NCBI GenBank assembly: GCA_963733675.1
Contig: CAVTET010000004.1
Coordinates: 64,001-128,000, forward strand
DNA from: an uncultured Methanosarcinaceae archaeon
GTDB lineage: Archaea > Halobacteriota > Methanosarcinia > Methanosarcinales > Methanosarcinaceae
Reading direction: 5' to 3'
Length of the DNA: 64,000 nt
Below the pieces are notes generated by a model that was not told the origin of the DNA, did no database searches, and saw only the letters and a program-made list of their open reading frames with translations. Below are positions 35,213-37,381 of the stretch, piece by piece (position 1 is the first letter of the stretch; every line of letters begins with the position of its first letter). Position numbers and translations under genes: made by a program.

Positions 35213-36767
35213 TTAGCGTTTGCCCTTATTTTTGTAGAGCAAATTCATTGCATTCACGAGGGCTTCTACAGAAGCCATAACTATGTCTGGATTTGCAGAT
35301 CTAGCAGTTACAATTCTTCCTTTTTCGTTTTCAAGACCTATATATACGTCTGCAAGAGCATCTGCTCCTCCAGTGATGGCATCAATTCTGAACTCCTGAA
35401 GTTTGAAGTGGTTATTCTCTCCCAGGATATCTCTTACTGCATTGAGGGCAGCATCTACAGGGCCAACCCCAACTCTTGCAGCAATAACCTCTTTGCCTTC
35501 GATGTCTGCTTTGACAACGGCGGTGGGCGTAATGATATTTCCGGTCATCACAGAGACCTCTTTTAGCTTGATAAGTTCTTCTTCGGAGCTTGCTTTCCCG
35601 AGTACTGCAGAAGCAACAGCATAAAGGTCAACATCTGTGATCTGTTTGCCCTTATTTGCAATCTCCTTGATCCGGGATACTATTTCATCGAGTTGCTTAT
35701 CATTGGTTATTATTCCTGCAGATTCAAGGGACTGTTTAACTGCATGTTTGCCTGTATGTTTTCCAAGAACAATACGTCTTTTGTGACCTACCATTTCCGG
35801 AGTCATTATCCCAGGTTCGAAAGTATCGGATTTCTCAAGAACTCCCTGGCTGTGTATCCCAGATTCGTGGGAAAAAGCATTTTGGCCTACCACAGGAGTG
35901 TTGGGAGGAAGCCTGATTCCAGTATAGTTTTCAACCATTTTTGAAGTTTCTACAAGGTATTCGGTCCTAATATTTGTTTTTATCCCATAAATTGCCTTCA
36001 GACTCATAACTGTCTGTGGAAGGTCGGCATTTCCTGCTCTCTCTCCAATGCCATTTATCGTGACCTGGACCTGGGATGCTCCGGCTTCGATAGCCATGAG
36101 GCTGTTTGCTACCGCAAGCCCAAAATCATTATGGCAGTGCACATCTATAGGAATTGTTATTTCAGCTGCAATGTCTTTTATCTGCCTATACATTGCGGAT
36201 GGAACCATAATGCCAACAGTATCTGGCACGTTGATTATATCGCATCCCACTTCTTGGACCGCCTTGAAAACATCTATTAGGTACTCAGGATCAGTCCTAG
36301 TTGCGTCCATCGCAGAAAACATGCACTTCAGACCATGGTCTTTGATATATTGGACAGCTTCTACAGCCAGTTGGATAACTTCTTCCTGGCTTTTTTTGAT
36401 AGTATATGTCCTTTGAACATCTGAGGTGGGAACGAAAGTATGTACAAGGCCAACGTCGCTTTCAAAACATGCATTTATATCTTTCTTCAATACACGAGCA
36501 AGTCCACAGACTACAGCATCCAGCCCGGTATTAGAGATTGATTTTATGGATTCCTTGTCGCTTTCTGAAGAGGCGGGAAATCCAGCTTCTATTATGTCTA
36601 CCCCGAGTTTGTCAAGTTGATGGGCAATTTCCAGCTTCTGAGCAGAATTAAGGGATACTCCAGGAGTTTGTTCTCCGTCGCGCAGTGTTGTGTCAAAAAC
36701 AGTTACCGTTTTATTCTGTAGGGATTCGATGTAAAAATCGATCCCTTCTTTGAGTTCTTACATTCAT
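35213..36767 (-). CDS. leuA: 2-isopropylmalate synthase (LeuA/CimA family); N-terminus reachable only by a +1 frameshift or a non-canonical start
   Basis: FDTTLRDGEQTPG, HCHNDFGLAVAN, GERAGNA, HESGIH and GVGPVDA allosteric domain. The frame is open from 36757 but the first ATG/GTG/TTG is at 36490. Confidence 0.85.
36711..36767 (-). other. 18-codon leader ORF MNVRTQRRDRFLHRIPTE* overlapping leuA in another frame
   Basis: First ATG after the TATA box TTTATATA (about 36799-36806) and SD-like AAGTGA; contains AGAAGGGAT-CGA-TTT-TTA-C. Confidence 0.6.
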
Positions 36768-36924
36768 GGTAATCACTTAAAAGGATGCACATTCCTGGTA
36801 TATAAATTTCATGTGTGTTTGTGAATTTTTTGATAAATTCATTTTTTGTTCTTTATTAAGGAGTTTTCAGAGATGAACTCCCAGTGGTCTATACTCAAAA
36901 GTGAATAGATATGCAGTCACTCCG

Positions 36925-37381
36925 TCAGTAAATCTGCTCCACCAGATAGTTTCCGACACACATCTGTTTGATCTGATCGAGTTGAGCTTCGATCCAGTCG
37001 ATCTGTTCCTCCTCTTCCTTCAGGATTGATTCGAGAAGTACTTTTGTGTAATTATCCACCACCTCAGCTGCTACATTGATGTTAGCAGTGTAACTGTGAA
37101 TAACTAAATCTTCAGTTAGATATCCATGCTAGAGTATATTTAGCAATTGTGCGCCGATGATTATTTTATTCAGTTTGCTGACGATTTGGTTCCCTTCGAG
37201 GAAGAGGATGCGTGCGATCAGTTTTTCTGCGTGTATCATCTCGGCGATGGCTCGCTTCTGGATCATTGCTTCCAGTTGCTTGCAATTCCAATTTTCACAA
37301 TCTCGGCATTGGCAATGTACTGGTTTGTAGAGTTCAGTTACTCAGCTAATCGCTTGTTCATATGTTAAATAATATTCTCAT
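36925..37381 (-). pseudogene. bfr: Bacterioferritin
   Basis: NQYI, RAIAEMIHAEKLIARILFLEG and LLESILKEEEEQIDWIEAQLDQIKQM..NYLVEQI, with stops and frameshifts. Confidence 0.8.

What the first reader, a model, noticed from the sequence alone, without database searches (positions are those of the whole stretch)
36490..36810. Candidate leucine-sensing +1 programmed ribosomal frameshift controlling leuA
Seen: TATA box, short UTR with AAGTGA, then ATG (36767) AAT GTA AGA ACT CAA AGA AGG GAT CGA TTT TTA CAT ... TAA (36711). The LeuA frame is +1 to this ORF, is closed upstream by TAA (36758-36760), and has no ATG/GTG/TTG before the essential DTTLRDGEQ motif. The rest of the gene has no lesion. Known: peptidyl-tRNA slips +1 at hungry A-site codons, and an SD just upstream stimulates this in prfB. 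Inferred: tRNA-Phe on UUU can re-pair with the overlapping UUU when the next codon UUA, the first Leu codon of the message, is starved, giving MNVRTQRRDRF-YIESLQNKTVTVFDTTLRDGEQ. GAAGGGAT lies one codon before the site. The first committed enzyme of leucine synthesis would then be made only under leucine limitation, a feedback loop replacing attenuation. Alternatives are initiation at an in-frame ATC (36742 or 36730) or a recent indel.
Basis: partly seen in the sequence, partly recalled or inferred. Interest (0 to 1): 0.9.

Follow-up and report, generated by a model that had tools for sequence, protein, structure and literature searches.

The report
Leucine-sensing frameshift leader on leuA
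The leucine-pathway gene leuA of this Methanosarcina has no start codon of its own and sits one base out of frame behind a short, strongly conserved mini-gene that ends at a leucine codon, so ribosomes most likely slip into leuA when leucine is scarce, a control not described in the literature I searched.

Summary
leuA (35213-36757, minus strand) is intact but has no in-frame ATG/GTG/TTG before DTTLRDGEQ. A start codon with its own ribosome-binding site (ATG 36767) lies one base out of frame.

It is not an assembly error. Contigs from three further runs (three other studies), one an RNA library, show the same letters.

The layout is ancient. I read 155 leuA 5' regions across the phylum. 131 of them (46 of 59 genera, 21 of 28 families) keep four things:
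- a -1-frame ATG;
- usually a block complementary to the 16S rRNA 3' end, one codon upstream of the slip site;
- a slippery NUU codon;
- then a leucine codon (131 of 131).

54 of the 131 have no canonical in-frame start at all.

The paralogous citramalate synthase gene (isoleucine pathway) carries the same cassette in 58 of 68 genomes. There the codon at that position is isoleucine in 58 of 58.

Best reading (about 0.65): a prfB-like +1 programmed frameshift that senses charged tRNA. The main rival is initiation at the conserved AUC codon.

No experiment exists. My literature searches found no report of it. The scan noted the same idea before on other DNA (e1-3199125).

The parts
36799..36806 (-). 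TATA-box-like TTTATATA of the leuA promoter
   Evidence: Read. It is kept at the same distance in the 30 sequences of the genus and its sister genus. That a transcript starts about 10 bases before the ATG is inferred from the usual archaeal TATA-to-start distance (my own knowledge), not measured.
36772..36776 (-). Shine-Dalgarno GTGAT serving the leader ATG (4 bases before it)
   Evidence: The aligned spacing to the ATG is 4, inside the 3-5 peak of 338 ORFs with a strong upstream duplex in this genome. The 16S 3' end is read from the genome.
36711..36767 (-). Leader mini-ORF (zero frame): ATG ... AGG GAT CGA TTT TTA ... TAA, MNVRTQRRDRFLHRIPTE*
   Evidence: A homologous -1-frame ATG ORF is present in 131 of 155 genomes.
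36758..36760 (-). TAA that closes the LeuA frame upstream. It is preceded by ATG 36763-36761, forming a start-stop pair in that frame.
36740..36748 (-). Internal Shine-Dalgarno-like block GAAGGGATC. Its last base is the first base of the E-site codon CGA.
   Evidence: The predicted duplex with this genome's 16S tail is -9.0 kcal/mol, the 4.2nd percentile of 6000 in-gene windows. The aligned spacing to the P-site codon is 3.
36732..36737 (-). Proposed shift site: P-site TTT (36737-36735) and A-site Leu codon TTA (36734-36732). After a +1 slip the codons read TTT (36736-34) and TAC (36733-31).
   Evidence: Read with one four-base step the product is MNVRTQRRDRF-YIESLQNKTVTVFDTTLRDGEQ.
35213..36736 (-). 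leuA coding sequence in the +1 frame (2-isopropylmalate synthase), from the F-Y codons to stop TAA at 35213-35215. DTTLRDGEQ lies at 36694-36668.
36719..36721 (-). CTA (Leu) at the position where 25 of 25 other species of the genus and 4 of 4 of the sister genus have an in-frame ATG
   Evidence: The same letters appear in independent runs.
36721..36745 (-). Local hairpin GGGATCGAT / ATCGAATCCC with the T-run in its loop. It is lineage-specific and of uncertain role.
   Evidence: this 80-base segment has z = -2.6, but most other genera lie near z = 0. Compensatory A-U to C-G changes between genera of the family were seen by eye.

Best explanation
leuA is expressed through a programmed +1 ribosomal frameshift that reports the supply of charged leucine tRNA.

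Proposed steps:
1. Ribosomes start at the well-placed ATG 36767 and translate the leader MNVRTQRRDRF.
2. With UUU in the P site, the block GAAGGGAUC pairs with the 3' end of 16S rRNA. That pairing reaches into the E-site codon.
3. The A site then holds UUA, the first leucine codon of the message, read by a single-copy tRNA-Leu(UAA).
4. If Leu-tRNA arrives quickly, the ribosome stays in frame and terminates after a few codons, releasing a small peptide.
5. If it is slow, peptidyl-tRNA-Phe re-pairs one base downstream (UUU to UUU), UAC is read next, and full-length LeuA is made with a short N-terminal leader.

The output therefore rises as leucine falls. The citramalate synthase gene is controlled in the same way by an isoleucine codon.

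Shown here: the sequence anatomy, its conservation, the fixed spacing of the SD-like block, and the pathway-matched codon.

Inferred: that the shift happens, where exactly it happens, how efficient it is, and that it depends on leucine.
For: (1) There is no other obvious way into the frame. G000 has no in-frame ATG/GTG/TTG. The same holds for 54 of the 131 cassette-bearing genomes. In 32 of 131 a canonical start lies upstream of the F codon, but only sporadically within genera: 8 of 26, 2 of 11 and 1 of 7.

(2) The -1-frame ATG, a slippery NUU codon (TTT 90, CTT 36, GTT 5) followed by C or U, and a short zero-frame tail are kept in 46 of 59 genera and 21 of 28 families.

(3) The zero-frame A-site codon is Leu in 131 of 131 sequences, using five different codons (TTA 88, CTT 21, CTA 19, CTC 2, TTG 1). 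The enzyme-frame residue at that place varies (Y 107, F 20, S 2, W 1, L 1).

(4) The paralog named (R)-citramalate synthase by NCBI, UniRef and JGI has the same cassette in 58 of 68 genomes. The codon there is Ile in 58 of 58 (ATT 57, ATC 1). Its enzyme-frame Leu codon is always TTA, even where TTA makes up 1% of Leu codons (G173, G259, G248). The constraint therefore lies on the zero frame.

(5) In 31 of 46 genera the block upstream of the site is in the lowest 5% of in-gene duplex energies with the 16S tail, and in 23 of 46 in the lowest 1%. In 33 of 33 genera with a strong duplex, the aligned spacing to the P-site codon is exactly 3.

(6) The three known promoters of +1 shifting are a hungry A-site codon, a slippery P-site codon such as CUU U, and an upstream SD-like block at critical spacing that displaces E-site tRNA. 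They are described in PMC2377451 (passages read).

(7) Canonical LeuA proteins of other archaea begin M-F-Y (P0054, P0080, P0092). Homology therefore starts exactly at the junction.

(8) Downstream of the site, substitutions within the genus are synonymous in the LeuA frame (TAC/TAT, GAA/GAG, CCC/CCT) and change the residue in the zero frame (read by eye).

(9) The gene is under purifying selection on the G000 branch: 30 synonymous against 18 non-synonymous unique codons. The other 18 species pooled give 136 against 85.

(10) Models based on stalling or occlusion would lower enzyme output during starvation. That is the wrong direction (inference).
Against: - There is no protein, Ribo-seq or reporter evidence.
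- +1 shifting at a sense codon is usually inefficient, yet LeuA is needed by an autotroph.
- The A-site Leu codon is not consistently rare. Its share of Leu codons is 0.01-0.04 in three families, but 0.13 in G000, 0.28 in f18 and 0.34 in f29.
- The SD-like block is weak or absent in several families (f8 at the 85th percentile; f18, f20, f27 and f29 between the 10th and 25th).
- Spacing 3 is also a normal initiation spacing in this genome, so no 'strain' argument can be made from it.
- In the GTT variant (5 sequences) and in the citramalate synthase cassette (UUU to UUA, or AUU to UUA) re-pairing after the slip is imperfect.
- The conserved enzyme-frame AUC/AUU/AUA codon, which is ATG in two genomes, could itself be a start.
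- Four genomes of family f6 and one of g11 (G143) lack the upstream ATG but keep the block.
- The genome is reported to be decaying (earlier notes e1-6367839 and e1-6367820; low ORF density).
Confidence: 0.65

Rival explanations
1. LeuA starts at the conserved near-cognate codon AUC (36742-36740; AUU or AUA in other lineages), read as Met to give M-D-F-Y-I-E. The overlapping mini-ORF is a separate regulatory or incidental leader.
For: An AUC, AUU, AUA or ATG codon stands at this position in 119 of 131 cassettes (derived from the hexamer and spacer counts). It is ATG in G038 and G182. NCBI annotators placed the start there for proteins named Methanocella paludicola and Methanoperedens (MVFY...). 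In G143, and in G085 and G075, an AUU lies one codon further on at a workable distance. An earlier scan note on another phylum reached an AUU-start reading (e1-4872245, not tested here).
Against: - The conserved SD-like block ends inside or directly against this codon (aligned spacing about -3), so it cannot serve it.
- A strong ATG with its own SD lies 4-24 codons upstream, and its ribosomes run over the AUC.
- Family f8 has ACT at this position and no canonical start in 6 of 7 genomes, yet keeps the leader.
- This reading does not explain why the zero-frame codon is always Leu for LeuA and always Ile for citramalate synthase, nor the frozen TTA.
- A ribosome stalled at the Leu codon would cover the AUC, giving less enzyme in starvation.
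Confidence: 0.17
2. The mini-ORF is an amino-acid-sensing leader peptide that controls leuA without a frameshift. Examples would be termination-reinitiation at a nearby codon, or an effect on mRNA stability or structure, as in classical leader-peptide control.
For: The pathway-matched Leu and Ile codons fit any ribosome-based sensor. In the genus the leader stop lies 7 bases after the in-frame ATG, a geometry that suits reinitiation. A local hairpin exists in one family.
Against: - Most lineages offer no canonical codon at which to reinitiate (54 of 131 have none), and G000 has none.
- No Rfam family matched at E up to 1.
- There is no shared RNA structure (z near 0 in most of 46 genera).
- Only one or two sensing codons are present, and no terminator was looked for or seen.
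- This model does not require the strict -1 frame relation between leader and enzyme.
Confidence: 0.1
3. In this particular organism leuA has recently died: the ATG became CTA in an eroding genome, and the upstream cassette is a relic.
For: 25 of 25 other species of the genus keep the ATG. Earlier notes report pervasive gene decay in this genome (e1-6367839, e1-6367820). ORFs of at least 150 aa cover about 38% of the window (my sum), and there are only 784 ORFs of at least 300 aa in 3.9 Mb.
Against: - There is no other lesion in 514 codons.
- The unique-codon ratio of 30 synonymous to 18 non-synonymous matches that of intact relatives.
- The same state is present in a strain about 2.4% diverged and in three further runs from three other studies.
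- 24 of 46 cassette-bearing genera have at least one genome with no canonical in-frame start at all.
- No second leuA ortholog is present in the genome.
Confidence: 0.05

Closest known systems
prfB (release factor 2) autoregulatory +1 frameshift of bacteria
   Same: Both have a short zero-frame ORF from a good start, an SD-like block one codon upstream of a slippery xUU-U P-site codon (CUU U in prfB; PMC2377451), and a slowly decoded A-site codon whose decoder is tied to the gene's own product. In both, the full-length protein lies in the +1 frame. The exact prfB sequence AGG GGG UAU CUU UGA is recalled, not seen in a call.
   Different: Here the A-site codon is a sense codon (Leu; Ile in the paralog), not UGA. 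The sensor is aminoacyl-tRNA supply, not a release factor. The host is an archaeon. The shift lies 11 codons into the message, so nearly the whole protein is trans-frame.
Hungry-codon +1 frameshifting: yeast Ty1 (a rare tRNA at the AGG codon) and laboratory constructs in E. coli
   Same: P-site slippage is favoured when the zero-frame A-site tRNA is scarce (PMC2377451, passages; the Ty1 details are recalled).
   Different: The known cases are retroelements or artificial constructs. None is a biosynthetic gene that senses its own pathway's end product.
Antizyme (OAZ1) +1 frameshift sensing polyamines
   Same: A frameshift acts as both the sensor and the effector of a metabolic feedback loop (review PMC8211752, passages).
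   Different: That system is eukaryotic, its A-site codon is a stop, its ligand is a small molecule, and the feedback has the opposite sign.
Leader-peptide attenuation of the enterobacterial leu operon (Rfam Leu_leader)
   Same: It has the same logic: a ribosome reading leucine codons in a short leader sets the expression of leucine-pathway genes.
   Different: That system uses a run of Leu codons plus alternative terminator and antiterminator hairpins, and acts on transcription. Here there are one or two codons, no Rfam match, no conserved structure, and the read-out is proposed to be the reading frame.
fucA1 -1 programmed frameshift of Saccharolobus solfataricus
   Same: It is the only cellular archaeal frameshift listed as demonstrated in the reviews I read (PMC8211752; PMC5009743).
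   Different: It runs in the -1 direction, has a different site type, has no known sensing role, and is confined to a narrow lineage.

Membership tests
2-isopropylmalate synthase (LeuA; NCBIfam NF002085 subfamily) | Full-length match above the curated cut-off, with the catalytic DTTLRDGEQ region and the C-terminal regulatory domain | tested here: met
   767.5 bits against a cut-off of 517, profile positions 9-502 of 504. Database relatives carry PF00682 and PF08502.
prfB-type SD-stimulated +1 programmed frameshift | Translated zero-frame ORF from a genuine start, ending shortly after the site, with the main product in the +1 frame | tested here: met
   The ATG has an SD at spacing 4. The zero-frame stop comes 0-9 codons after the A-site codon (2 codons in 72 of 131). 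The +1 frame is open for 507 codons from the F codon.
prfB-type SD-stimulated +1 programmed frameshift | Slippery P-site codon that can re-pair in the +1 frame | tested here: met
   In G000 UUU re-pairs on UUU. Across the survey the P-site codon is TTT in 90, CTT in 36 and GTT in 5 of 131, always followed by C or T. GTT re-pairs at only two of three positions.
prfB-type SD-stimulated +1 programmed frameshift | SD-like element at a fixed short distance upstream of the shift codon | tested here: met
   G000 has -9.0 kcal/mol at the 4.2nd percentile. 31 of 46 genera lie within the lowest 5%. The spacing is 3 in 33 of 33 genera with a strong duplex. The feature is not met in f8 and is weak in f18, f20, f27 and f29.
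prfB-type SD-stimulated +1 programmed frameshift | A-site codon is the stop codon UGA, read by the gene's own product | tested here: not met
   The A-site codon is a Leu sense codon in 131 of 131. This is therefore an analogue of the prfB system, not a member.
prfB-type SD-stimulated +1 programmed frameshift | Trans-frame protein demonstrated | not testable with these tools
   No proteomic or Ribo-seq data could be laid. The main text of the M. mazei Ribo-seq paper (PMC11456600) mentions neither leuA nor frameshift, and its supplements are closed.
Classical leader-peptide transcription attenuator (Leu_leader type) | Run of regulatory codons plus conserved terminator and antiterminator RNA | tested here: not met
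   There are one or two Leu codons. No Rfam match was found at E up to 1. There is no shared fold.
Non-AUG (AUU/AUC) initiated gene, infC type | Conserved near-cognate start codon at a working distance from an SD | tested here: inconclusive
   The codon is conserved (119 of 131), but the only SD-like block abuts it (spacing about -3). SD-independent initiation cannot be excluded.
Pseudogene | Disabling lesions and relaxed selection | tested here: not met
   There is no stop or frameshift in 514 codons. Unique codons are 30 synonymous to 18 non-synonymous, as in relatives.

The most novel reading that the evidence does not exclude
Most methanogens and methane-oxidisers of this phylum (Methanosarcinales, plus the lineages whose database proteins are named Methanocella, Methanosaeta and Methanoculleus) would make LeuA and citramalate synthase only through an ancient +1 ribosomal frameshift gated by aminoacyl-tRNA. 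If so, this would be the first cellular +1 recoding event in archaea. It would also be the first natural frameshift that senses an amino acid to control that amino acid's own biosynthesis, with sensor specificity set by a single codon (Leu versus Ile).
Probability: 0.55. Interest if true: 0.93.

Novelty: new variant of a known kind. Interest (0 to 1): 0.9.

Why it matters
If true, this adds a third way, besides attenuation and T-box or riboswitch control, by which cells couple amino-acid supply to biosynthetic gene expression. It would do so in archaea, where such control is almost unknown.

It would also be a natural sense-codon counterpart of the prfB frameshift. It shows how one codon can set sensor specificity, which is directly testable by swapping UUA and AUU.

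On the practical side, it explains why leuA and cimA of these organisms are annotated with arbitrary, inconsistent or truncated starts. Examples are MQNK..., MVFY..., MRNRK... and MFDTT... for LeuA, and 482-aa citramalate synthases that are 14 residues shorter than the enzyme frame and so cannot contain the DTT of the motif. Such calls can make metabolic reconstructions report false gaps.

Tried and rejected
Assembly or sequencing error. Rejected: one search shows identical letters in another study's DNA contig, no change at the key codons in a diverged strain (one DNA run and one RNA run), and no insertion or deletion.

Transcriptional slippage on the T-run. Rejected as the general mechanism. 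The run is 5 T here, but in other lineages only 4 T (f2, f4, f5) or 2 T (GGGTTCTA, CCTTCTTC). The RNA contig carries no indel, although contigs drop rare variants.

Known RNA family or conserved RNA switch. There was no Rfam match and no consistent fold.

Rare-codon hypothesis. The test gave a mixed result, so I do not use it as support.

SD spacing one base too short, relieved by the slip. I considered this and dropped it, because spacing 3 is as common as 4 and 5 at real starts in this genome.

Further cassette-bearing genes in this genome. The strict motif occurs only at leuA. A looser scan gave 106 hits, of which only leuA and cimA combine the cassette with a start-less long +1 ORF of a recognisable pathway enzyme. 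I did not follow the other start-less hits (C1:636090, C5:185842, C6:94397, C6:171996, C7:33157, C12:88850, C1:101146, C1:616348).

Population SNPs as a selection test. Too few were available in the strain that spans the site (1 synonymous, 2 non-synonymous).

Literature. Six full-text searches and keyword look-ups in two reviews, the M. mazei Ribo-seq paper and GapMind 2026 found no report of a leuA frameshift or leader in archaea. Supplementary tables (transcript starts, Ribo-seq ORF lists) were closed and may bear on this.

Halobacteria-like families. Families f14, f24-f26, f31 and f33 had no match at my E-value threshold, so I did not examine them.

Rows reclassified. Seven loci (L062, L063, L100, L108, L129, L146, L147) met my automatic site rule only through chance -1 ORFs at non-homologous places, and I counted them as 'no cassette'. 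In one search the script mis-sited L234 and L235 and skipped L237 and L238. I read these four by eye (all TTT ATT). L226 was a false hit, because it has a normal ATG.
Full report
**What is in the window.** On the minus strand an intact 2-isopropylmalate synthase gene runs from 36757 to 35213. It is 514 codons from stop to stop and matches NCBIfam NF002085 at 767 bits over profile positions 9-502 of 504.
- The frame is closed upstream by TAA 36760-36758. It holds no ATG, GTG or TTG before the catalytic DTTLRDGEQ at 36694-36668.
- One base out of frame, an ATG at 36767 follows a TATA-like box (36806-36799) and a GTGAT ribosome-binding site four bases upstream. It opens MNVRTQRRDRFLHRIPTE*.
- The zero-frame codons around the proposed site are AGG GAT CGA TTT TTA.
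- Read with a single four-base step at TTTT, the product is MNVRTQRRDRF-YIESLQNKTVTVFDTTLRDGEQ.

**It is not an artefact.** The window belongs to a 3.9-Mb, 15-contig genome whose 801 bases around the site are held by soil and peat metagenome runs. I laid four runs.
- The probable source run was identical.
- A DNA contig from another study was identical over 36300-36939.
- A strain variant seen in a third study's DNA (15 differences) and in an RNA library (8 differences) had no change between 36651 and 36768.
- No run showed an insertion or deletion.

The CTA codon, the T-run, the ATG and the TAA are therefore properties of the population. An RNA contig without an indel also argues against a predominant transcript-level correction, though contigs hide rare forms.

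**Close relatives.** In 25 of 25 other species of the genus and 4 of 4 of a sister genus, the LeuA frame has an ATG nine codons before the motif, where G000 has CTA. Database proteins named Methanosarcina start there (MQNK...). By itself that would suggest a dead start codon in G000. Three observations say otherwise.
- All 30 sequences share the out-of-frame ATG and a 20-base invariant run across the cassette. In the gene body the longest invariant run is 8 bases, and 337 of 400 third positions vary.
- Between the T-run and that ATG, the substitutions are synonymous in the LeuA frame and non-synonymous in the leader frame. Translation therefore enters the LeuA frame upstream of the annotated start.
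- On its own branch G000 shows 30 synonymous against 18 non-synonymous unique codons, like its relatives pooled (136 against 85).

**The wider survey.** I collected leuA 5' regions from 155 genomes, covering 59 genera and 28 families of the phylum.
- 131 of them, in 46 genera and 21 families, keep the same architecture. It consists of an ATG in the -1 frame 4-24 codons upstream, a six-base purine-rich block, one spacer codon (CGN in 103, TGY in 22), a codon NUU (TTT 90, CTT 36, GTT 5), and then a leucine codon.
- The zero frame stops 0-9 codons later.
- 54 of the 131 have no canonical in-frame start at all. 45 have one only downstream of the junction. 32 have one upstream, scattered within genera in a way that looks like drift.
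- Seven families and one genus lack the cassette. Most of them have ordinary in-frame ATG starts. Family f6 lacks the leader ATG but keeps the block, and three of its four genomes have no canonical in-frame start.
- Canonical LeuA proteins of other archaea begin M-F-Y. That is exactly where the junction falls.
- Public annotations of cassette-bearing species start at ATC, ATT, ATA, TTG or internal codons in an inconsistent way. None that I saw uses slippage.

**The codon that matters.** The zero-frame codon after NUU is leucine in 131 of 131, encoded five ways. The overlapping enzyme-frame residue varies among Y, F, S, W and L.

The decisive control came from outside the window. G000's paralog on another contig also lacks any in-frame start, and reads ...TTG AGG GAT TAT ATT ATT... 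in the -1 frame. Sources name its orthologs (R)-citramalate synthase, the first enzyme of the isoleucine branch in methanogens. NCBIfam cannot separate the two paralogs.

In 68 genomes, 58 carry the cassette (typically M-x-R-R-D-R-F-I-C-stop), and the codon at the homologous position is isoleucine in 58 of 58. The enzyme-frame leucine that overlaps it is always TTA, even in genomes where TTA is 1% of leucine codons. Selection therefore acts on the leader frame. A third paralog (homocitrate-synthase-like) has normal ATGs.

So the position reads Leu for LeuA and Ile for citramalate synthase, across about twenty families. This is hard to explain unless a ribosome reads that codon to sense the matching charged tRNA.

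**The stimulator.** The 16S rRNA of this genome ends ...CUGGAUCACCUCCU.
- The 14 bases before the P-site codon pair with it at -9.0 kcal/mol in G000, the 4.2nd percentile of 6000 in-gene windows.
- 31 of 46 genera fall within the lowest 5%, and 23 within the lowest 1%.
- The families whose proteins sources name Methanoculleus or Methanoregulaceae are weak or lack the block.
- Wherever the duplex is strong, its aligned distance to the P-site codon is exactly 3 (33 of 33 genera). The last paired base is the first base of the E-site codon.
- That is the geometry described for prfB, where the SD-like pairing is thought to displace E-site tRNA. In that model a slippery P-site codon and a hungry A-site codon act together (PMC2377451, passages).
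- The same spacing rules the block out as a ribosome-binding site for the conserved AUC codon, which it abuts.

**Mechanism and rivals.** The best-supported model is a +1 frameshift at NUU with a leucine codon waiting in the A site. It gives LeuA a short N-terminal leader, and output rises as Leu-tRNA falls. tRNA-Leu(UAA) is single-copy, and TTA is 13% of Leu codons in G000. I put this at about 0.65.

The main rival is initiation at AUC/AUU/AUA. That codon is conserved in 119 of 131 and is ATG in two genomes. However, it has no usable SD, is overrun by leader ribosomes, is missing in family f8, and does not explain the matched codons.

Leader-peptide models without a frameshift have two problems. 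They would need a start codon that most lineages lack. They also tend to predict less enzyme in starvation.

Gene death in G000 is unlikely for the reasons given under close relatives.

Weak points of the favoured model are the lack of any experiment, imperfect re-pairing in the GTT and citramalate-synthase variants, the absence of a consistent rare-codon signal, and lineages without the SD-like block.

**Known or new.** Two reviews of recoding (PMC5009743 from 2016 and PMC8211752 from 2021; passages) list three kinds of archaeal case: the fucA1 -1 frameshift, viral cases, and a suggested magnesium chelatase case. Neither mentions leuA. Six full-text searches found nothing further.

Earlier notes of this scan describe the same idea for a hyperthermophilic archaeon (e1-3199125) and a -1 version with matched codons in Pyrobaculum relatives (e1-5719208). 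These are unverified AI notes. I tested the first idea independently on this phylum.

I class the finding as a new variant of a known kind: an autoregulatory +1 frameshift whose sensor is an aminoacyl-tRNA.

Noticed in passing
G000 contig C6, 27354-28842 (+ strand), outside the window; loci L196 and L199. Relatives in L176-L195 and L200-L248.: The citramalate-synthase paralog also lacks any in-frame start. It sits +1 of a leader carrying AGG GAT TAT ATT ATT, so it has Ile codons where leuA has Phe-Leu. 58 of 68 genomes keep this, and the codon is Ile in 58 of 58.
   Followed up: yes
whole window and genome: Open reading frames are sparse. ORFs of at least 150 aa cover about 38% of the window by my sum, and the 3.9-Mb genome has only 784 ORFs of at least 300 aa. 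This fits earlier notes of pervasive gene decay in this genome. I did not test whether that decay is real or an assembly effect beyond the 801 bases laid.
   Followed up: partly
window 36721-36745 (-); homologous places in L032-L049: In Methanosarcinaceae genera a hairpin encloses the T-run: UCGAU/AUCGA in the genus, UCGCU/AGCGA or GGCGA in others. These are compensatory changes between the spacer codon's third base and the codon after the Leu codon. The hairpin is not seen in other families, and its role is unknown.
   Followed up: partly
window 36758-36763 (-): In the LeuA frame an ATG is followed at once by TAA (a start-stop pair), 4 bases after the leader ATG. In 8 of 26 species of the genus the TAA is TAC, which gives an in-frame ATG 23 codons before the motif (MYTLKEGIDFY...). 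A database cluster of 287 members is called that way (P0002).
   Followed up: partly
window 36925-37100 (-): The gene upstream ends with a bacterioferritin-like C-terminus (...IDWIEAQLDQIKQM...; the name is my recollection of the family). Its longest ORF there is only 45 aa, so it looks truncated. A 32-base piece (36968-36999) is also held by high-depth contigs that run on into unlike sequence.
   Followed up: no
L192-L194 (cimA 5' regions of family f3): These three keep AGAGGGATTCGCAT but no NUU-Ile site. The -1 frame is His-rich (RDSHHRHHRH...), the enzyme frame is Thr-rich (RGIRITDTTGT...), and there is no canonical start. This is unexplained.
   Followed up: no
L030, L031, L071, L083 (leuA of family f6) and L033 (G143): These keep the SD-like block and F-Y but have no upstream ATG. 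One has ATG at the AUC position; the others have only ATA, ATC or ATT nearby. How LeuA starts there is unclear. The cimA gene of the one f6 genome examined (G027, L191) does have the full leader.
   Followed up: partly
G000 contigs C1:636090, C5:185842, C6:94397, C6:171996, C7:33157, C12:88850: These are further places where a purine-rich block, a spacer and an NUU codon precede a long +1 ORF without a canonical start. They could be decayed genes or further recoding candidates.
   Followed up: no
database proteins P0124-P0150 and P0044-P0097: Public gene calls for these two enzymes are systematically off. The Methanosarcina citramalate synthases are 482 aa, 14 residues shorter than the 496-aa enzyme frame, so by length they cannot contain the DTT of the motif (I did not read their sequences). 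LeuA starts are placed at five or more different codons.
   Followed up: partly
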